Below, piece after piece: positions 7,575-15,934 of a stretch of DNA of 64,000 bases (its first letter is position 1; every line of letters begins with the position of its first letter). Location of the stretch: positions 160,001 to 224,000 of the forward strand of contig CAWHCF010000010.1 in the NCBI GenBank assembly GCA_963827655.1. The letters run 5' to 3'. Below the pieces are notes generated by a model. That model was not told the origin of the DNA. It did no database searches and was given only the letters and a program-made list of their open reading frames with translations. Source of the stretch: an uncultured Acidobacteriota bacterium (GTDB lineage: Bacteria > Acidobacteriota > UBA6911). The translations under genes and the position numbers were made by a program.

Positions 7575-9369
7575 TTACTCCGGCTCTCCTTTCTTGAGGC
7601 GTGAGATCTCCCGAAGCTGGTCGCCGAGGCGCTCGCCCATCGAGGTGCTGCCTGAATCTGCCGAGGCCATGTACGAGGTGAATTCCAGCCTTGGTTCGTC
7701 TTCCTTCATCGCTTTGAGGCTGAGTCCAATCTTCTTTTCCGGGAGGTTCAGCTTGATGATCTTCATATCCACCTCCTGGCCTATGTTAAGGAACTCCGCC
7801 GGCTTCTCCACGTGTTTCTCGTCCAGCTCGGACACGTGGCACAGTCCTTCGATCCCTTCCTCGAGCTCGACGAATGCGCCGAAGTTTGTCATGCGCACAA
7901 CTCTTCCTTTAATCACGTCGCCCGGGTTGTGCCGGTTAAACCAGTCTTCCCATCGATCAGGCTCGAGCTGTTTGATTCCCAATGAGAGTTTCTGATTCGG
8001 GGCATCCACACTCAACACCACCGCCTGCACCTCGTCCCCTTTCTTCAGCATTTCCGAGGGGTGTTTGATCCGCTTGGTCCAGGACATGTCCGAAACATGC
8101 ACCAGGCCGTCGATACCCTCCTCTACTTCGATGAAGACCCCGAAATCAGTAACGTTTCGCACTTTGCCTGTTATCACGGTACCGGGTGCGATACTTCGAC
8201 TCGATGATGTCCCATGGATTTGGTTCGGTCTGCTTCAGGCCGAGCGAGATTCGGCGGGCTTCGGTATCGATGTCGAGCACCACGACTTCAACCGGGCTGC
8301 CGACAGAAACGATCTTTGACGGGTGTTTCACCCTCTTGTTCCACGTCATCTCGGAGATGTGAATCAATCCCTCGATGCCGGGTTCCAGTTCGACGAAGGC
8401 TCCGTAGTCGGTCAGGCTCACGACTTTGCCCTGAACCCGGATGTTCTTGGGATAGCGCATGTCGGCGTGAAGCCACGGATCTTCCGTAAGCTGCTTGTAG
8501 CCCAGGGAGACGCGGCCATCCTCGCGGTTGAACTTGATGACCTTGACTTTGACCTTATCCCCGACCGCGAAGATCTCTGATGGATGATTGACTCGTCCCC
8601 AGGACATATCCGTTATATGGAGCAAGCCATCGACGCCCCCCAGGTCAATGAACGCGCCGTAGTCGGTTATGTTCTTGACAATCCCTTCCATGACCTTCCC
8701 GTCTTCCAGGACCTCCATGGTCTTGGCTTTCTCTTCCTGCATCGCCTCTTCAAGGACTGCCTTCCGGGACAGAACGATGTTACCGCGCTTCTTGTTTACC
8801 TTGATGACGCGCATCTCGAACTCTTCGCCGCGGAGGCTATCGAGATTCCGTACCGGGCGCAGATCAATTTGGGATCCCGGGAGAAAAGCCCGCACGCCGA
8901 TGTCGACAGCCAACCCGCCCTTGATCCGTTCAATGACTCGTCCTTTCACGACAGTTCCGTCGCGGTAGGCTTTCTCAATTTCGTCCCAGATCTTCATCCT
9001 CTCGGCTTTTTCGCGCGACAACACCACGTAGCCGCTGGAGTCTTCGGTCTGCTCGAGAAAAACATCGACCACATCGCCGACCTTGATCGAGTGGCGGCCG
9101 CGGTCATCCAGAAACTGCTCGAGCGGGATGATGCCTTCGGATTTGAAGCCGACATCGACAACGACCCCGCTGCCTGAGAAGGCGATGATCTTTCCTTTGA
9201 CTACCTCTCCCTCGGAAAAACGCTGGGTTCGTCCTTCATAGGCGGCCAGCAGAGTCTTGAAGTCGTTTTCGGCCTCCTGGTCGGCGGTGACGGGCGCATC
9301 GACGGGTTGCGTGTCGCCGGGCGAAGTCGCGCTCCCTGCCAGTTGCGGATTGTTTACATCAGATGCCAT
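7575..9369 (-). CDS. rpsA: 30S ribosomal protein S1, split by a frameshift near 8190
   Basis: Successive S1 repeats (VDVGFKSEG, AFLPGSQID, DGLLHITDMSW, EGLIHISEM, DGLVHVSDMSW, EGLCHVSEL) across two overlapping ORFs; AGGAGG before ATG 9369. Confidence 0.97.
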
Positions 9370-9558
9370 TCCTGCCTCCTGACGTCCCACGGACAGAAAC
9401 TTACGGCGTTCCAATCGCGGGATTCTTTGTATTCAATTAAGAATAAGCCTAATGCGTGATCGGACCTGAAGAGGAAATTACGTGCGGCGTCGCAGTATTC
9501 CAGTTGAAGCAAATCCAAAGGTCAACATTCCTTAGATCACTAGAAATAACAGCCCTTC

Positions 9559-9694: not shown

Positions 9695-12600
9695 TCAATA
9701 AAGGGGCCCTGGGTCACCCTGGCAAATGAACGCTCCCCAGTAGAGCGGATCCGGATCCTCGTCCTTGAGCGCGAGTTGCGCATCGCGCAACGCATCGGCT
9801 CGCGGCTGGCCCGCCAGCATGCGGCGATAAAAGTCAGTCATGAGCTTTTGAGTCTGCTGGTCCGGTACTTTCCAGAGACTCATCACGAGGGTCTTGGCTC
9901 CCGCCAGCACGAAGGCTCTGCGCAATCCGAAGACGCCCTCGCCCGTCTTGATCTCGCCCAGCCCGGTCTCGCACGCCGACAGGGTGACGAGCTCGGTCGC
10001 CTGCAAATCCATTCCCGAAACATCCTCGGCGTTCAGGAGCGCGTCTTCGGCTTCGCCCGGCAGATCGCCGCGCTCGATCCATGTGTTTGCGCCGGCCAGC
10101 GCCAGGCCGGATCGCAGCAACGGACTCTCGATGCCCAGCGCGGCGAGACGATTGAATGCAAGACCGAATCCGGCCGCTCCGAGATCGCGCGCGCCTTGCG
10201 GGCGGCCGCCCGGCTGGTCAGACAGGAAGAATCCGTGGGTCGCGAGGTGGAGAATGCGCGGCGAACGACAGGATTTGACCCTGGACTCGAGCGCAATCGA
10301 ATCGAGCAGCGGCTTCACGCGCAGCATTTCGGCGATCCGTTCGCCTTCGATTCTGGTTCCCGGCAGACGTTTGAAATGGAGGTTCCCCCGATCGAGGTCG
10401 CGCGAAAGTCTCATGGGGGAGTCCTCGAGCGATCTGGTCGCGGCGCTCGCCGGCGCCGTCAAATCAAAATCGGGATCGGCGATGACCATGGGGTCGCCGG
10501 CCTGCCCCTTGACCGAGTTTCCGAATCGCATCACGTCGCGGCCCGTACTGAGATAACTGATGTGGTAATCGTCAATCAGCCGGCGTCCATCGCCAAGCTC
10601 CAGAACCTCGAACGGAAGGCGCGAGAGTTCGCCTTCGGGCGCGAGCAAAAGCTGCCGGCAATCGCCCAGCACCGGCAGAAGCGGGTCGAAGACGGCACGG
10701 CGCAGCGCGACGCCGCAATCCGATGTCGATTCGACCGGCGCTCGAGGCGGTGCCGCCCCAAGGTCTCTGCCGCTCCCGCCTCCGATCTCGCCGGTGAGCT
10801 GGGCGCGAAAACAGCCGACCAGGCGATCGATCTCATCGGCGTCGCCGAGGTTGATCATCCGCAGATCGTGCGGTCGTGAGGCAGGCAGCACAAAGGCGGC
10901 ATAGCGCGCCTTCACGAACAGCTCGTCCGCCAGGGCCTGCGGATTGTCGAAATCAAAATCGAAGAAATGGACGAACTCGATCAGGGCCGAGCCGGCCGGG
11001 AGAGCCGCGGCCACCTTCGTCAGATCGACCTCGCGCATCTTCTGTCCCAGCCCGACCTCGGGAATCTGGAGCGCCAGTTGCCGTTCCAAAGCTTCTCGGC
11101 GCGCCTTCAGCTCGCGCAGCGCCCGAAGGTGAACCTCGAGGCCGTCGCTCCCCGGACCTGAGAGCGTCATCTGCGAGATGCTTTGCCGCACCGAGGCCAG
11201 CTCGCGCAAGTGAGGTTCGAGGTGGGGATACTTTCCGCTGAGCACCGAATCGCGCTGGGCGGCCAGAGCCTCCGCGCCAATCCCTTTGCGCTTGAGCACG
11301 AGGTTCATCGCCGCCTGGACCGCCGGGGGGCTGCCGATCAGATGCTGCGAAACCAGGGAAATCGAGCAGAGGAACCTCGACTGGATGTGCCGGACATAAC
11401 CCATCCGCTGGCTTTCGGAGGCGAGCGAGAAGAATTCGTGAATGGATTGGTCCGTGATGGATTCAATCTGTACCATCAGCTCCCGGGCTTCTTCATAGCG
11501 CTTGGTCGCGGCGCACACAAGCAGCAGATTGCTGAGCACGGCGGCCCGCAGCGGATGCTCTTCTCCCACCAGCGCGCGATACGCCTCCGCCGCCTGGCGC
11601 AGTGCCATCTCGGCGATTTCGTAGTTGCCCAGCCGCAACAACAGCAGACCGAAACCGTTGAGGATGCTGGTGTGTTCGGGAACCGGACTCTCTTGCGCCA
11701 GGCCGATGGCCTGCTCGAAGAGCGCAAGAGCGTCATCGTACTTTTCGCGATGCGTGTATATGGTCGCCAGGTTGCCCAGGGCGGTGATGTAGTACGGTCC
11801 CCGTTCGCCCTCAACATCACGGAAGGCCGCCACGGCTCGTTTGGCGTAATGCTCGGCTTGCTCAAGCTCGAGGGTATCTATGTAGAGCTTCGCCAGGGCG
11901 TTCAAGGTTGTGGCTTTGTGCATGACCATGACGCCGGTCGCATCTTCCAGTATCTGGAGCGCCCCGAGGAAAGCCGTTTCGGCCGGCCGGTAGTCTCCAA
12001 CGTTGTGATAGAGATCTCCCAGATAGAAAAGATCCACTGCGTAGAGCCAGTGGTTTTCTCCCAGCTTCGAGCCGTGAATCCTCATCGCCTGCTGCGCGAG
12101 CGGGATCCCGGTCTTGTATTGGCCCAGGTTCCGGTAATGAATGGCCAGATTGTTAAGGCTGATCGCGAAGTCCTCGTGGTCTTCGCCGAGCACTTTGCGT
12201 CGAATCTCGATGGATTCGAACAGGCATTGTTCAGCAGACTTGAAAGCCCCGGTCCGCCCGTAGACAGTTGCCATGAGGTTGAGCGTCTGGGCATATTCCG
12301 CAGTCTCGACGCCCGCCGTTTCGCGCTGGAATTCCAGCACTCGCCTTAGAAGTTGCTCGGCTTCGTCGTACCTCCCAAGCGCCAGGGAGCTCGTGGCCAG
12401 AAGACTCAGGGTGTTGAAGTAAATGGGATGGTTCTCCCCCAGGACACGGCTTGCAAGCTCGCGCAATCGCTCCGCTCGCGGCCGGGCGTCAGCCATTTTG
12501 CCGACGTTCATCTGGAACCCGACAACGACATTCAGCAGCTCCACGTATTCGGCAGTCTCTTCCCCCCCGGCTCGCTGCTTGATCTCGAGTGTCCGTTCGA

Positions 12601-13211
12601 GCCATGGCAGCGCTTCGTGGTGTCTGCCCGCTTCCGCGTAATACCAGGCCAGCGTTTCGACCAGCTGGCCGTAAACCGGATGGTCTTCTCCGAGGTGTTT
12701 GCGGTTCGGTTCTACAGCCTGCAGAAGGAGGGGCTCCGCCTCTTCGTGGCGGCCCTGCTGCGAATAGATCAACCCGAGGGTAGCCAGATTATCGGCGTAT
12801 TGCGGGCTATCCTCGCCCAGCGCAGACGGAATCAACTCGCGCAGGGCTTCATACCACGGCAGGGCCGATTCCATTCTTCCCGTCTTCAGGTAGAGCATGG
12901 CCAGATTGGTCATGGCGGCAACGGACGAAGGATGCTGCTTGCCCGTGGTGTCGGTGTAGCAAGCGATCGCGCCCAGGTATAACTTCTCGGCATCCTCGTG
13001 GCTTCCCTGCGCCGCGTAAAGAAAGGCGAGGTTGTTCATGCTATCGCCGGTTGAAGAACCCTCCATCCCGAGGTTTTGAGAGGCCAAGGCGAATGCGAGC
13101 CTGGCGCGGGTCAGCGCTTCCTCGGTTTGCCCTTGCTGGATGAGTTCGATAACGGCTCTTGTTGAGAGTGTCAATGGTGTCGGGCGTGATCTCTGAATCC
13201 TCTTCCGGCAT
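9695..13211 (-). CDS. TPR-repeat + CHAT-domain caspase-like (clan CD) protease
   Basis: About 13 kinesin-light-chain-type ~42-aa TPRs (SLNNLA/LGEDHP), a coiled coil, then CHAT with an intact His-Cys dyad (ILHLATHGFF, LVTLSACETG), GLRRAF..AGA, SLWKV.D and YWGAF; probable true start ATG 13211 (AGAAAGGA RBS, MPEEDSEITPDTIDTLNK) joined by a one-base frameshift near 13157. Confidence 0.93.
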
Positions 13212-13272
13212 TTTAAGGGGTCCTTTCTGGAAATGATCCCATCGCGTGATTGGTCGGAAGCGCGCCAGGCCG

Positions 13273-14277
13273 TCACATCACATCGAAGTAAGTGGACAGT
13301 GCCATCCACTGATTGGCCTCCATTCCGTGAAGCCGCGCGAGTAATTCGTCAATGTCCGTTCGAGAAAGAACCCGGGCAGGAACCCGCGGATTCAGCGGCA
13401 TCCAGTCGAGCCCCAGCGGATGATCGGTGAGGACGGCCAGGAGATGCTCGCGTCCCGGCTTGCCCGTCACCACAAACGATTGGTAAGTGGATCCCGGCCG
13501 AGGCAAATAGCTGCGGCCGGCCTTGAATCGGGTGTCGGGCGCAAACCACGACGGACAGAGACAATAGATCTGGCCGCTCGTGCCCTCGTTCAGAAGCAGG
13601 AGGTCGCCTTCGCGTTCTGATTCAATGGCCAGACAGACGCGGTCGCCCGGGCGGAAGCCATGTTGCGCTTCCTCCTGCGGAGCGCCCAGGTCGCGCAGTA
13701 TGGGACGCGCGGCGCCGCGGCTTGCCGCCCCTGCGGGAACCGGCCAGATGCGGTCGGTGAATCTCGCAATCGATCTCAGGCCTTCGATCCCGTGCGCCAG
13801 GGGTTGCGGTTGAGCAACCGGCTTTGTGCCGGCGAGGTCAACCCTGGTTCGGCAATCGACGCCGGCGAGCTCGAGCGATTGCAGGACCTGAGGCAGCCAC
13901 TGCTCGGCGGCGCGATCGATGACTTCGATCCATTGCCAGCCTTCCAGCCAGTACTCGATCTGTTCGGGAAGGTTGATCGGGTCCAGCAGAATCGGCAGGT
14001 ACGGACGCTCGTACTTCCAGGCAAGCTGAATCTCCTGTTTGACGTTGCGTGAGCGCATCGAAGCGTCAGTCGTCATGAGCATCAGCACCTTGCAGTTCTT
14101 GATACCGCGAACGATTTCGGGGCCGTAGTTGAGACCTCCGGCAATCTTGTTGCGATCAAGCCAAAGCTTCACGCCGGCCTCTTCCAGCTGACCGGCGATT
14201 CTGATCACCCGTTCGCGGTCGCGGCTGGAGTAGCTTATGAAGACTTCGGCGTCATCGACTGAGACGGGTTGCTTCAT
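13273..14277 (-). CDS. TIR-domain protein with C-terminal DUF4384-like beta-sandwich domain
   Basis: VFISYSSRD..LWLDR..I..G..EI..GI..SRNVKQEI (TIR_2, catalytic-position Glu present); C-terminus F.PGDRV.L.IES..G.L.LL..GTSG.IY.L.P..LP..GKPGRE.L.AV typical of DUF4384. Confidence 0.85.
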   Translation of the reverse strand: MKQPVSVDDAEVFISYSSRDRERVIRIAGQLEEAGVKLWLDRNKIAGGLNYGPEIVRGIKNCKVLMLMTTDASMRSRNVKQEIQLAWKYERPYLPILLDPINLPEQIEYWLEGWQWIEVIDRAAEQWLPQVLQSLELAGVDCRTRVDLAGTKPVAQPQPLAHGIEGLRSIARFTDRIWPVPAGAASRGAARPILRDLGAPQEEAQHGFRPGDRVCLAIESEREGDLLLLNEGTSGQIYCLCPSWFAPDTRFKAGRSYLPRPGSTYQSFVVTGKPGREHLLAVLTDHPLGLDWMPLNPRVPARVLSRTDIDELLARLHGMEANQWMALSTYFDVM

Positions 14278-14427: not shown

Positions 14428-15934
14428 TCATAGCCGGTGAAGCCATTCGCGCAGTGCAGGGTAAAGCTCCCGATAGAGTGGAAATCGTTTAGCGTAGAAG
14501 CGGGACCGCCTGGGATTCGGCCGGTAGGTGCGTTCGATCCGCGAGATCCTCAAAGCTGCCTCGCGCGCATTGGGGTAGACCCCAATGGCCGTACCCGCAA
14601 GAATCGCGGCCCCGAGGCACACCGCTTCCGGGACGCGCATCGCCGAGACGGGTTTGCCGAGCAGGTCGGCCTTGAGCTGCATCCAGAACGCAGACTTGGC
14701 GCCGCCTCCGGTTGCGCGAAAGGCGCTGATCGAAGCTCCGCACTCGCGCAGCACCTGGACGTTGAGCGCCATCTCATAGGTGATCCCCTCCAGGATGGCG
14801 CGAATGATTTCCCCCTTGGTGGTAGAGAGTCTCAGACCTGCCAGGACGCCTTTCGATTGGGTATCAAAGTGAGGCGTGCCGGTCGAGGTGAAATGAGGAA
14901 GCAGCAGGAGGTCCGTCGGCTCTTTTGCCGCCTGGGCGATCAGCAGGGCGTAGACGTCCCGGCCGGTTTCCCGGGCGCGCGCCGTCTCTTCCGCTCCCAA
15001 AACGTCGCGGTACCACCGGAGCAGCGAGCCCCCCGAGAAATTGAACGTGAGCGCCACGTAGAGGCCCGTGACGACATGGGGGTAACAAGCGATGTTGTTC
15101 TCGAGAAGTTGCGGATGAATGACGCGCGTTCCAAGCGCCGGCGTGATGCATTCTACGGTGCCGGTCGCGTACAAGCCGACGTTGGGCTCCGACCACTCCC
15201 GCGCCGAGCGCGCCACACGGCTGGTCGTGGCCACCGGTGACGATCGCGACGCCGCGCGGGAGGCCGAAGGACCGCGCCGCCTTCGATCCAAGCTCTCCGA
15301 TTGCGGTCCCCGGGGGGTAGACGCGAGCCAGGCGTTCCGGGGCGATTCCCGCGATATTCAGCATCTTCGGGGACCAGTCGACGTGATCGACGTCCAGGAG
15401 CATTGTCCGGGAAGCCAGGGAGGAATCGATGGCGGGCTCGAGGCCTAGCCGGTAAAAGAGAAGATCCGAGTAGCACAGGAAGTAATGCGCCTTGCGGAAA
15501 ACGTCGCGCCGCTCTTTCTTCCACCACAGAATCTTGCTGGCGGTGTACATGCCGTGGAGCGGCATCCCGGTAATTTCGAAAATTTGCTGGCGCGGGATCC
15601 GCTCCTCCCACCACGCCACCCATGGAGCCGTGCGGGCATCGAACGTCACGATGGCGTTGTGCAGGAATTGGCCGTTGCGGCCGACGGGCGTAACGGCCTC
15701 GCCTTGGGCCGCGACGGAGAGCGCGCGAATCGGATCCTTTCGAGTCGCTGCCGCAACCTCGCGGATAACCTCGCGTGCCGCCCTCATGACACGGGCGCTA
15801 TCGAGTTCGATCCAGCCCGGGCGAGGAAAATGAAGCGGGTACTCCCGGTAGGCCGACGCCAGAATCCGGCCCTCTTCGTCGAAGGCGACTGCTTTGCAGC
15901 CCGTGGTGCCGATGTCGATTCCAAGTAGACTCAT
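14428..15934 (-). CDS. FGGY-family carbohydrate kinase (xylulokinase-like), frameshifted near 15190
   Basis: LLGIDIGTTGCK, GGHDQPCGALGAG, then ATGTVEC, G.LLRWYRD, RAILEG, GGGAKS.FW.Q..AD in the second frame. Confidence 0.92.

What the first reader, a model, noticed from the sequence alone, without database searches (positions are those of the whole stretch)
10175..13695. Shared pentapeptide RDLGA occurs three times across the TIR protein and the CHAT protease: putative cleavage or docking motif
Seen: RDLGA occurs in the TIR protein linker just before the DUF4384-like domain (PILRDLGAP, nt 13681-13695). It occurs twice more in Gly/Pro-rich loops of the CHAT region: GSGRDLGAAP (nt 10754-10768) and QGARDLGAAG (nt 10175-10189, just after the catalytic His). 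The three copies use different codons, so conservation is at protein level and not a DNA duplication. Related TRSLE and SRDLD lie in a third CHAT loop. Known: several clan CD proteases (separase, metacaspases) cut after Arg. Inference: R|DLGA is the protease recognition site, giving self-processing and release of the TIR domain from DUF4384; alternatively the new DLGA N-terminus acts as a tethered ligand.
Basis: partly seen in the sequence, partly recalled or inferred. Interest (0 to 1): 0.8.

Follow-up and report, generated by a model that had tools for sequence, protein, structure and literature searches.

The report
Shared protease motif, TIR–CHAT gene pair
Two neighbouring bacterial genes, a TIR–DUF4384 protein and a TPR–CHAT caspase-like protease, share a short conserved peptide (R-D/G-L-G-A) that most likely marks where the protease recognises, and probably cuts, its partner and itself.

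Summary
RDLGA occurs three times at the stated coordinates with different codons, and nowhere else in the six frames of the window.

The motif is conserved far beyond chance:
- R[D/G][L/M/I]G sits at the aligned linker position, just before DUF4384, in 121 of 121 family members. It is a low-entropy island in a variable linker.
- The same motif recurs in two loops of the partner TPR-CHAT proteases. AlphaFold2 predicts both loops as disordered (pLDDT below 50).
- It also sits just upstream of the CHAT domain in a divergent CHAT subfamily that partners TIR-DUF4384.
- It is absent from 12 of 14 other CHATs; the two exceptions are tied to TIR-DUF4384 genomes.

The D or G variant matches between partners in 21 of 23 loci. 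That rests on only about 3 switches on the tree, so co-evolution is not statistically shown.

Motif+DUF4384 follows TIR, kinase-TIR, kinase or CHAT domains.

Precedents are Csx29 cutting Csx30 at the edge of a C-terminal domain that is DUF4384 in some orthologues, and separase autocleavage and autoinhibitory loops.

Cleavage itself and the P1 residue remain untested. I rate this a new variant of protease-gated bacterial effector systems.

The parts
13273..14277 (-). Gene for the TIR-DUF4384 protein (334 aa, P0001)
   Evidence: ORF, translation. Pfam TIR_2 E 4.9e-21 and DUF4384 E 3.2e-11. 334 homologues at E<=0.001, the best 120 at 51-96% identity.
13915..14244 (-). TIR domain (aa 12-121); conserved Glu82 at 14032-14034
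   Evidence: Pfam. E82 is invariant in 49 sequences. Fold matches TIR domains: Foldseek 4w8g E 1.9e-5; VIA 4w8h_A Z 15.3, rmsd 2.5, 123 aligned. Coordinates checked.
13681..13695 (-). Motif copy in the TIR protein: RDLGA (aa 195-199), start of the conserved block R-[D/G]-L-G-A-P-Q
   Evidence: R[DG][LMI]G is present in 121 of 121 aligned family members; column entropy is 0-1 bit against 2-3.6 bits in the 12 columns upstream. The AF2 model places it in coil, with block pLDDT 75-77.
13417..13656 (-). DUF4384 domain (aa 208-287 by Pfam; the conserved fold continues to the C-terminus)
   Evidence: Pfam. AF2 pLDDT is about 90 or higher over 201-334.
9695..13309 (-). Gene for the TPR-CHAT protease (in-frame ORF of 1204 aa from GTG 13309, P0002). 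The homologue-supported start is ATG 13211, with a 1-base insertion near 13150-13155.
   Evidence: Pfam TPR_12 E 8.8e-84 and CHAT E 2.6e-69. Start and frameshift.
11390..13159 (-). TPR array (about aa 51-640)
   Evidence: Pfam TPR_12, TPR_10 and TPR_MalT matches. Boundaries are approximate.
10754..10768 (-). Motif copy 1 in the CHAT protein (aa 848-852), in the loop just before the CHAT domain
   Evidence: The loop has pLDDT below 50 (model residues 153-172). Arg at this column in 111 of 121 homologues and the strict motif in 48 of 121. The same position carries RGLG in a divergent CHAT subfamily.
10391..10405 (-). Third loop element SRDLD (aa 969-973), part of a family-wide G-R-x-S-R-D-[LFMI]-[DN]-R block
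   Evidence: It lies next to or partly within the low-confidence segment 264-284 of the model.
10175..10189 (-). Motif copy 2 in the CHAT protein (aa 1041-1045), beginning 16 residues after the catalytic His
   Evidence: The loop has pLDDT below 50 (model residues 342-372). The strict motif is present in 50 of 121 homologues; at this column R 76, L 16, F 6.
9713..10717 (-). CHAT protease domain (aa 865-1199) with His1025 (10235-10237) and Cys1113 (9971-9973)
   Evidence: Pfam. ATHG and SACETG located. H and C are invariant in alignment A2. The fold is nearest Csx29 of Craspase (8d9f_A E 6.4e-12), then separase.

Best explanation
The two genes form a protease-gated effector module. The TPR-CHAT protein is a Csx29/separase-like cysteine protease. 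Its TPR array is inferred to sense a trigger.

R-[D/G]-[L/M]-G-A is the short linear motif through which the CHAT active-site region recognises its targets. The copy in the TIR protein, at the N-terminal edge of DUF4384, is the substrate site. Cutting there would separate the TIR NADase domain from DUF4384 and so switch the effector.

The two copies in flexible loops of the protease itself would be autoprocessing sites or uncleaved pseudo-substrate loops that keep the enzyme in check, as in separase.

Shown here: the motif, its conservation, its loop location, its co-occurrence with the partner, and the modular use of motif+DUF4384.

Inferred: that it is bound by the active site, that it is cleaved, which bond is cut, and what cleavage does to TIR.
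For: 1. Conservation in the substrate. R[DG][LMI]G is present in 121 of 121 TIR-DUF4384 homologues, with R and G invariant, L in 117 and Q in 117. It sits directly after a highly variable linker.

2. The same motif in the partner. It occurs at two loops of the adjacent CHAT in L002, L003, L007, L013, L032, L072 and others. Across the 121 nearest CHAT homologues the site-1 column is R in 111, and 66 of 121 carry the strict motif at one or both sites.

3. A divergent subfamily. Four partners from another CHAT subfamily (L008, L010, L055, L071; Pfam CHAT E 1e-40 to 1e-64) carry RGLG 22-35 residues before the CHAT domain.

4. Specificity. Among 14 other CHAT proteins examined, 12 have no motif. 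The two that do are L119, in the gene cluster of L025's TIR-DUF4384, and L128, from the genome of L008.

5. Variant matching in 23 unique pairs: DUF-D with CHAT-D-only 11; DUF-D with a CHAT G site 0; DUF-G with CHAT-D-only 2; DUF-G with a CHAT G site 10.

6. Accessibility. Both CHAT copies lie in pLDDT<50 loops. The TIR copy lies in coil.

7. Modularity. Motif+DUF4384 follows TIR, Pkinase-TIR, Pkinase, unknown domains, and in P0279 a CHAT domain itself. Five loci have 2-3 copies, two of them with a copy inserted inside a DUF4384 hairpin.

8. Linkage. A CHAT hit lies on the same locus in 42 of 88 unique loci, and in 17 of 27 with at least 4 kb on both sides. It is on the same strand in 38 of 41 fetched loci.

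9. Fold. The CHAT model is nearest Csx29 (E 6.4e-12) and separase.

10. Precedents. Csx29 cuts Csx30 at M427|K428 at the start of its C-terminal domain, one group of which is DUF4384. Separase has substrate-like autocleavage sites, and its AIL3 loop occupies the ExxR-binding site.
Against: - No cleavage data exist.
- On a tree of the 23 pairs the D/G state changes only 3 times in the DUF4384 protein and 5 times in CHAT. Independent contrasts number 1-3, so the sign test cannot reach significance. The match may be shared ancestry.
- 55 of the 121 nearest CHAT homologues lack the strict motif at both sites.
- L017 has degenerate sites beside an intact TIR motif.
- 10 of 27 loci with long flanks show no CHAT hit. 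One of them, L025, has a CHAT just beyond the locus.
- The TIR copy is continuous with the conserved DUF4384 block and has pLDDT of about 77, so part of its conservation could be structural.
- Retention patterns disagree on the key residue. Arg is best kept at site 1, whereas [DG]-L-G is better kept than Arg at site 2.
Confidence: 0.55

Rival explanations
1. The motif is a non-cleaved docking peptide. The TPR array, or DUF4384, binds R-[D/G]-L-G-A. The protease's own loop copies compete with the TIR protein's copy for that site, so the motif controls assembly or release rather than proteolysis.
For: TPR_12/TPR_10 arrays are peptide-binding scaffolds (general knowledge). The motif always travels with DUF4384 at a fixed spacing. 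The copies are in flexible loops. Multiple tandem copies occur.
Against: P0279 carries motif+DUF4384 fused to a CHAT domain, and Pfam reports no TPR in it. The partner always has an intact His/Cys dyad in alignment A2. The closest solved analogue uses this geometry for cleavage.
Confidence: 0.2
2. This is Thoeris-like signalling. The TIR protein senses infection and makes an NAD-derived signal that activates the CHAT protease, which then degrades cellular proteins. The shared motif is incidental to this, or only an autoprocessing site.
For: Type IV Thoeris pairs a TIR with an Arg-specific caspase-like protease activated by N7-cADPR (passages read). The TIR Glu82 is invariant. The TIR domain has weak ThsB-like PADLOC hits.
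Against: This does not explain why the same motif is conserved in the TIR protein and its partner, or why it also follows kinase and CHAT domains. No Thoeris NCBIfam model comes near its cut-off; the best is ThcB4 at 21.8 bits against a cut-off of 220. The protease here is TPR-CHAT, not the C14 caspase with the C-terminal sensor domain described for type IV.
Confidence: 0.12
3. The conservation is structural and the rest is coincidence. The motif in the TIR protein is simply the N-terminal cap of the DUF4384 fold, and the CHAT loop copies are lineage-specific chance matches inherited by descent.
For: The motif is continuous with the conserved DUF4384 block and is modelled at pLDDT of about 77. 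There are few independent D/G switches. A shared pentapeptide between two such proteins is common by chance (755 of 2000 shuffles).
Against: The motif recurs at the same place in two CHAT subfamilies. It is absent from 12 unrelated CHATs. Extra copies are inserted in linkers and in a DUF4384 hairpin. Three copies by chance occurred in 12 of 2000 shuffles.
Confidence: 0.07
4. The motif is a tripwire or decoy for a foreign (phage) protease. Both proteins display a bait sequence, and cutting by an invader's protease triggers the system.
For: Only the exposed, repeated nature of the motif.
Against: The module encodes its own protease. D/G variants track between partners across phyla. No candidate foreign protease is known. 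No tool result supports this reading.
Confidence: 0.04

Closest known systems
Craspase (type III-E CRISPR): Csx29 TPR-CHAT protease cutting Csx30
   Same: - TPR + CHAT architecture. Csx29 chains are the best structural matches of the CHAT model (8d9f_A E 6.4e-12).
- The substrate is a two-part protein cut at the N-terminal edge of its C-terminal domain.
- One group of Csx30 C-terminal domains is DUF4384 (passages read).
   Different: - No Cas7-11 or CRISPR context was seen next to the genes. The flanking ORFs look like rpsA and a sugar kinase by eye; this was not tested by family search.
- The substrate's N-terminal part is a TIR domain, not the RpoE-binding Csx30 N-terminal domain.
- Csx29 was reported not to cut its own complex, whereas here the protease carries the motif itself.
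- The reported P1 is Met427; here P1 is unknown.
Separase (clan CD, C50): autocleavage sites and autoinhibitory loops
   Same: - Helical/TPR-like domain plus a CHAT-like protease fold (9hm7 E 4.5e-9).
- Substrate-consensus sites sit in a disordered insert of the enzyme itself.
- The AIL3 loop occupies the substrate-motif site next to the active site, and securin acts as a pseudosubstrate (passages read).
   Different: - Separase is eukaryotic.
- Its motif is (S/D/E)xExxR with P1 Arg.
- Its substrate is cohesin.
- There is no TIR or DUF4384 partner.
Type IV Thoeris (TIR + caspase-like protease)
   Same: A TIR protein and a clan-CD protease are encoded together in a presumed defence operon. The Thoeris protease is Arg-specific (passages read).
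   Different: - There the TIR is upstream and makes N7-cADPR, and the protease is a promiscuous C14 caspase with a C-terminal sensor domain.
- No shared motif, TPR, CHAT partner or DUF4384 appears in the passages I read.
- The direction of control proposed here is the opposite: protease acts on TIR.
SAVED-CHAT to PCaspase cascade (type III-B CRISPR)
   Same: A CHAT protease specifically processes one dedicated partner protein encoded nearby (passages read).
   Different: - Activation is by cA3 through a SAVED domain.
- The substrate is another protease.
- No cleavage motif was given in the passages I read.
Bacterial gasdermin systems
   Same: An associated caspase-like or CHAT protease removes an inhibitory C-terminal part of an effector to activate it.
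   Different: The effector is a pore-former and no DUF4384 is involved. This comparison rests on recall only.

Membership tests
CHAT / clan CD cysteine protease | Pfam CHAT domain match above the gathering score | tested here: met
   PF12770 E 2.6e-69, 234 bits against a cut-off of 24, aa 865-1199.
CHAT / clan CD cysteine protease | Catalytic His and Cys dyad present | tested here: met
   ATHG (His1025) and SACETG (Cys1113) located. Both residues are invariant in the 35 sequences of A2. That these are the catalytic residues is inferred from the family pattern.
CHAT / clan CD cysteine protease | Caspase-hemoglobinase fold like Csx29 and separase | tested here: met
   Foldseek: 8d9f_A E 6.4e-12, TMq 0.44; separase 9hm7 E 4.5e-9; gingipain R 1cvr E 1.6e-5. 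The model has mean pLDDT 75.5.
TIR domain NADase | TIR domain match and fold | tested here: met
   PF13676 E 4.9e-21. VIA 4w8h_A Z 15.3, rmsd 2.5, 123 aligned. PDB profile hit Cat1 E 8.6e-9.
TIR domain NADase | Conserved catalytic glutamate | tested here: inconclusive
   E82 is invariant in 49 sequences. That it is equivalent to the catalytic Glu of enzymatic TIRs is inferred from its position, not shown by superposition. NADase activity was not tested.
DUF4384 (PF14326) | Pfam match above the gathering score | tested here: met
   E 3.2e-11, 43.6 bits against a cut-off of 27, aa 208-287.
DUF4384 = Csx30 C-terminal-domain-like module | Fold similarity of the C-terminal domain to a solved Csx30 C-terminal domain | tested here: inconclusive
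   The Foldseek and VIA lists were filled by TIR matches. Model residues beyond about 160 were barely tested.
Type III-E Craspase system | Association with Cas7-11 (gRAMP) and a CRISPR array | not tested
   No search for Cas7-11 or CRISPR repeats was run. The ORFs flanking the pair look like rpsA and a sugar kinase by eye.
Thoeris (any typed form in NCBIfam or PADLOC) | Match to a curated Thoeris protein model above its cut-off | tested here: not met
   NCBIfam: best is Thoeris_type3_ThcB4 at 21.8 bits against a cut-off of 220. PADLOC 2.0: only weak ThsB TIR-domain hits (E 1.7e-5 or weaker), and no hit for the CHAT protein other than TPR. PADLOC 2.0 dates from 2023 and may lack type IV.
Protease with substrate-like self sites (separase-type regulation) | The same consensus is present in the substrate and in disordered inserts of the enzyme | tested here: met
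Protease with substrate-like self sites (separase-type regulation) | Demonstrated autocleavage or active-site occupancy by those loops | not testable with these tools
   This needs biochemistry or a structure.

The most novel reading that the evidence does not exclude
R-[D/G]-[L/M]-G-A plus DUF4384 is a portable 'protease address tag'. One family of TPR-CHAT sensor-proteases uses it to gate many different effectors: TIR NADases, Ser/Thr kinases, kinase-TIR fusions and even other CHAT domains. The protease's own loop copies act as securin-like pseudo-substrates or autocleavage switches. This would be a bacterial counterpart of separase-securin logic and a generalisation of the Csx29-Csx30 step outside CRISPR.
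Probability: 0.35. Interest if true: 0.8.

Novelty: new variant of a known kind. Interest (0 to 1): 0.7.

Why it matters
Protease-gated effectors (Craspase, gasdermin, the SAVED-CHAT cascade) are a recent theme in bacterial immunity. For most CHAT proteases neither the substrate nor the recognition sequence is known.

Here sequence comparison alone nominates four things:
- a substrate (TIR-DUF4384);
- a precise site;
- a role for the uncharacterised DUF4384 domain as the module that accompanies the site;
- a self-regulation mechanism through the protease's own loop copies.

All four can be tested directly with a few point mutants.

If true, this links TIR NADase activation to caspase-like proteolysis in the opposite direction to type IV Thoeris. 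It would also explain why DUF4384 is so often fused to, or encoded beside, clan-CD proteases.

My searches of the held library found no paper describing the motif or a TIR-DUF4384/CHAT pair. Subscription journals and supplementary files were not searchable.

Tried and rejected
- Complex prediction, with the CHAT region (A2) and linker+DUF4384 (A1, residues 150-334), returned 'no answer' (ipSAE 0.00 in both runs). It is neither evidence for nor against binding.
- Fold searches of the TIR-DUF4384 model (Foldseek pdb; pdb_via_wide) listed only TIR-like folds. The DUF4384 part was not effectively tested, so nothing can be said about its likeness to Csx30's C-terminal domain.
- The PDB sequence profile search found only TIR hits.
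- The independent-contrast test for D/G co-variation was underpowered, with 1-3 contrasts. I do not claim co-evolution.
- PADLOC and NCBIfam placed the pair in no named defence system.
- Literature searches for DUF4384+CHAT, TPR-CHAT+TIR, DUF4384 alone, CHAT domain+autocleavage, and the motif letters found no description of this pair or motif. The six motif hits were unrelated papers.
- I considered using contig-length matches between the two homologue lists as extra gene pairs.
- A possible alternative shared motif in a pair that lacks the Arg motif (L040: a [ST]-L-[DE]-M-G stretch in both the DUF4384 linker and CHAT loop 1) is a single case and is only a hint.
- Supplementary files of papers were not consulted. 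Those of the Csx29/Csx30 paper (Csx30 C-terminal domain groups) may bear on the DUF4384 comparison.

Full report
THE GENES

The finding spans two minus-strand genes.

- Gene 1, 13273-14277, encodes a 334-aa protein (P0001) with TIR_2 (aa 12-121, E 4.9e-21) and DUF4384 (aa 208-287, E 3.2e-11).
- Gene 2 is an open frame at 9695-13309 (P0002, 1204 aa) with a long TPR array (TPR_12 E 8.8e-84) and a C-terminal CHAT domain (aa 865-1199, E 2.6e-69).
- The catalytic-type His (ATHG, His1025) and Cys (SACETG, Cys1113) are present and invariant in 35 relatives.
- The pair sits between ORFs that look like ribosomal protein S1 and a sugar kinase (by eye). It is richer in G+C (0.63 and 0.60) than the sequence on its rpsA side (about 0.56).
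- In the whole 8.18-Mb genome there is one member of this TPR-CHAT subfamily and one TIR-DUF4384 of this family.

THE OBSERVATION

RDLGA occurs three times at exactly the stated coordinates. The codons differ between copies, and the pentapeptide occurs nowhere else in the six frames of the window.

On its own this is moderately unusual:
- Any pentapeptide occurred three times or more in 12 of 2000 shuffles of the two proteins. A pentapeptide merely shared between the two proteins is common (755 of 2000).
- Genome-wide, 3 of the 21 RDLGA occurrences in six-frame ORFs of at least 100 aa lie in these two genes.

CONSERVATION IN THE TIR-DUF4384 FAMILY

- The word-index search found 334 homologues. 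The best 120 are 51-96% identical and come from many phyla.
- In an alignment of these 120 plus the query, R[DG][LMI]G is present at the aligned position in 121 of 121. The columns read R 121; G 62 / D 59; L 117 / M 4; G 121; A 114; P 108; Q 117.
- The 12 columns just upstream have entropies of 2-3.6 bits, against 0-1 bit in the motif (listing; invariant columns).
- The motif is therefore the sharp N-terminal boundary of a conserved block that runs into DUF4384.
- AlphaFold2 (49-row alignment, mean pLDDT 86.5, pTM 0.81) places it in coil between strands 177-181 and 213-220, with block pLDDT 75-77.

CONSERVATION IN THE PARTNER PROTEASE

- In loci fetched with the TIR-DUF4384 protein, the adjacent TPR-CHAT carries the motif in the same two loops as in the window. 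Examples are L002, L003, L007, L013, L032, L056, L058, L072 and L093.
- Among the 121 nearest CHAT homologues, whose genomic context is unknown:
  - the strict motif is at site 1 in 48, at site 2 in 50, and at neither in 55;
  - in looser form the loops are family-wide. Site 1 reads R 111/121, then D 62 / G 17 / N 14, then L 75 / M 23. Site 2 reads R 76 / L 16 / F 6, then G 51 / D 41, then L 73 / F 18, then G 80.
- In the AlphaFold2 model of aa 690-1204 (mean pLDDT 75.5), both RDLGA copies fall in segments with pLDDT below 50: model residues 153-172 and 342-372. Two further low-confidence segments are 264-284 and 425-437, the latter just after the Cys.

SPECIFICITY AND LINKAGE

- Four TIR-DUF4384 loci (L008, L010, L055, L071) have a partner from a different CHAT subfamily (Pfam CHAT E 1e-40 to 1e-64). 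Each has RGLG 22-35 residues before the CHAT domain.
- Of 14 other CHAT proteins (12 loci from five genomes that hold a TIR-DUF4384, plus two from the window's genome), 12 have no motif. The two that do are L119, which turned out to lie about 6 kb downstream of L025's kinase-TIR-DUF4384 gene, and L128, from the genome of L008.
- Of 88 unique loci with a DUF4384-family gene, 42 have a CHAT hit on the locus. Of the 27 with at least 4 kb on both sides, 17 do.
- In 38 of the 41 fetched loci with a hit, the CHAT gene is on the same strand, often within 0-54 bases.
- My CHAT profile was built from the close subfamily, so these counts are lower bounds.

CO-VARIATION

- In 23 unique pairs the second motif residue matches. 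DUF-D with a D-only CHAT: 11. DUF-D with a G site in CHAT: 0. DUF-G with a D-only CHAT: 2. DUF-G with a G site in CHAT: 10 (Fisher p = 6.7e-5). For site 1 alone the counts are 10/0/2/8.
- On a tree of the DUF4384 parts, with the motif masked, the state changes only 3 times in the DUF4384 protein and 5 times in CHAT. Independent contrasts number 1-3, too few for a sign test.
- The pattern therefore agrees with co-evolution but does not prove it.
- Within single CHAT proteins that have both sites, the variants agree in 26 of 32.

MODULARITY

- An exhaustive search with linker+DUF4384 (aa 160-334) found 435 cluster representatives at E<=0.001. By my reading of the listing, about 44 of the 54 with E<=1e-30 show an R-x-[LMIV]-G motif just upstream of DUF4384.
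- N-terminal domains include TIR, Pkinase-TIR, Pkinase, regions with no Pfam match, and in P0279 a CHAT domain (aa 85-355) followed by the motif and DUF4384 (aa 447-525).
- Five loci have two or three copies in the DUF4384 protein (L010, L037, L067, L102, L109). In L037 and L109 one copy is inserted in a hairpin inside DUF4384.
- More distant DUF4384 proteins (L038, L040, L042, L107, L113) lack the motif, and the CHATs beside L038 and L040 lack it too.

WHAT IT MOST LIKELY IS

- The CHAT model's best structural matches are the Csx29 chains of Craspase (8d9f_A E 6.4e-12), then human separase (9hm7 E 4.5e-9), DdvA, gingipain R and SAVED-CHAT.
- In Craspase, Csx29 cuts Csx30 between M427 and K428, at a hairpin at the start of the Csx30 C-terminal domain (418-565). 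[quoted passage not shown]
- Separase has three autocleavage sites with the substrate consensus in a disordered insert. Its AIL3 loop binds the substrate-motif site next to the active site. Securin is a pseudosubstrate made uncleavable by a hydrophobic residue in place of P1 Arg (passages read).

The anatomy here fits both precedents. There is a substrate site at the N-terminal edge of DUF4384, and substrate-like copies sit in flexible inserts of the enzyme.

I therefore read the motif as the recognition, and probably cleavage, site of the TPR-CHAT protease. Cleavage would separate TIR from DUF4384, and the enzyme's own copies would serve autoprocessing or pseudo-substrate inhibition.

This is inference; no step of proteolysis was tested. 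The scissile bond is open:
- The Met/Leu P1 of Csx29, the invariant Gly, and one pair with an L-[DE]-M-G stretch instead (L040) leave L|G open.
- At site 2, Arg is replaced by Leu or Phe in 22 of 121. Under P1 = Arg that would resemble securin's uncleavable pseudosubstrate. This is speculation.

RIVALS

- A non-cleaved docking peptide for the TPR array or DUF4384.
- A Thoeris-like order of events, in which the TIR's product activates the protease (type IV Thoeris).
- Structural conservation plus coincidence.
- A bait for a foreign protease.
Each is weighed in its own section. The first two are not excluded, and the second is not exclusive of the main model.

STATE OF THE GENE IN THIS ASSEMBLY

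- Close homologues (P0123, P0124) start with a conserved N-terminus. In the window this is encoded from ATG 13211, but in another frame than the main ORF.
- Aligned with a 96%-identical relative (L043), the window has one extra base near 13150-13155.
- Either the gene is frameshifted or the assembly has an indel error.
- The neighbouring S1-like and sugar-kinase-like genes are also split into two ORFs each, which points to assembly errors.
- This does not affect the motif argument, which rests on homologues.

NOVELTY

The searches found no paper in the held library that describes the motif, a TIR-DUF4384 protein, or its pairing with TPR-CHAT. Seven papers mention DUF4384 at all.

I place this as a new variant of a known kind, namely protease-gated effectors of bacterial conflict systems. 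The concrete, testable features are a defined shared motif, DUF4384 as its companion module, and substrate-like loops in the protease.

Noticed in passing
window 13142-13211 (minus strand): The homologue-supported start of the CHAT gene (ATG at 13211) is out of frame with the main ORF. Relative to L043 and to P0123/P0124 there is one extra base near 13150-13155. This is either a frameshifted gene or an assembly indel.
   Followed up: yes
window 7575-9414 and 14428-15934 (minus strand): The S1-like gene and the sugar-kinase-like gene flanking the pair are each split into two overlapping ORFs. This suggests indel errors in the assembly rather than three real pseudogenes. The names are by eye and were not tested.
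   Followed up: no
own genome G000, contig C22 about 147000-157100: Three small DUF4384 proteins with signal-peptide-like N-termini lie next to a Peptidase-C14-like protein with TPRs (C22 154894-157050). Each DUF4384 paralogue has an [A/P]-R-D-L-V-[F/L] stretch C-terminal to the domain. This may be a strand of the fold or a related protease motif.
   Followed up: partly
P0279 (574 aa): This is a single protein with a CHAT domain (85-355), then the RDLGA motif, then DUF4384 (447-525). It is a fusion that links protease, motif and DUF4384 in one chain.
   Followed up: partly
L008, L009, L010, L011 (downstream of the TIR-DUF4384 gene): These loci show a conserved gene order: TIR-DUF4384 (or kinase-TIR-DUF4384), a small membrane-like protein, and a protein of about 1280 aa with a hydrophobic N-terminus and no Pfam match. 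In L008 and L010 a CHAT protein of another subfamily follows.
   Followed up: partly
window 10391-10405; the same column in 121 homologues: The third CHAT loop holds G-R-x-S-R-D-[LFMI]-[DN]-R in almost every member of the subfamily, whether or not the RDLGA sites are present. It is a separate, unexplained conserved element in a low-confidence loop.
   Followed up: partly
L040:5509-6393 and L040:6477-9797: This is a cyanobacterial pair without the Arg motif. The DUF4384 protein's linker and the CHAT loop at site 1 both hold an [S/T]-L-[D/E]-M-G stretch, a possible alternative shared motif. It is a single case.
   Followed up: partly
L038:2159-4390: The CHAT protein beside a motif-less DUF4384 gene has Ser in place of the catalytic His (ASSG instead of ATHG). 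It may be an inactive protease homologue.
   Followed up: no
L107:3-1997 and L107:6541-8535: The same 665-aa TPR ORF occurs on opposite strands either side of a DUF4384 gene. This is an inverted duplication or an assembly artefact.
   Followed up: no
L128 (G004:C52:11940-15290): A second CHAT protein in the genome of L008 carries two RGLG motifs upstream of its catalytic His. It has no DUF4384 gene on the 3.4-kb locus fetched.
   Followed up: no
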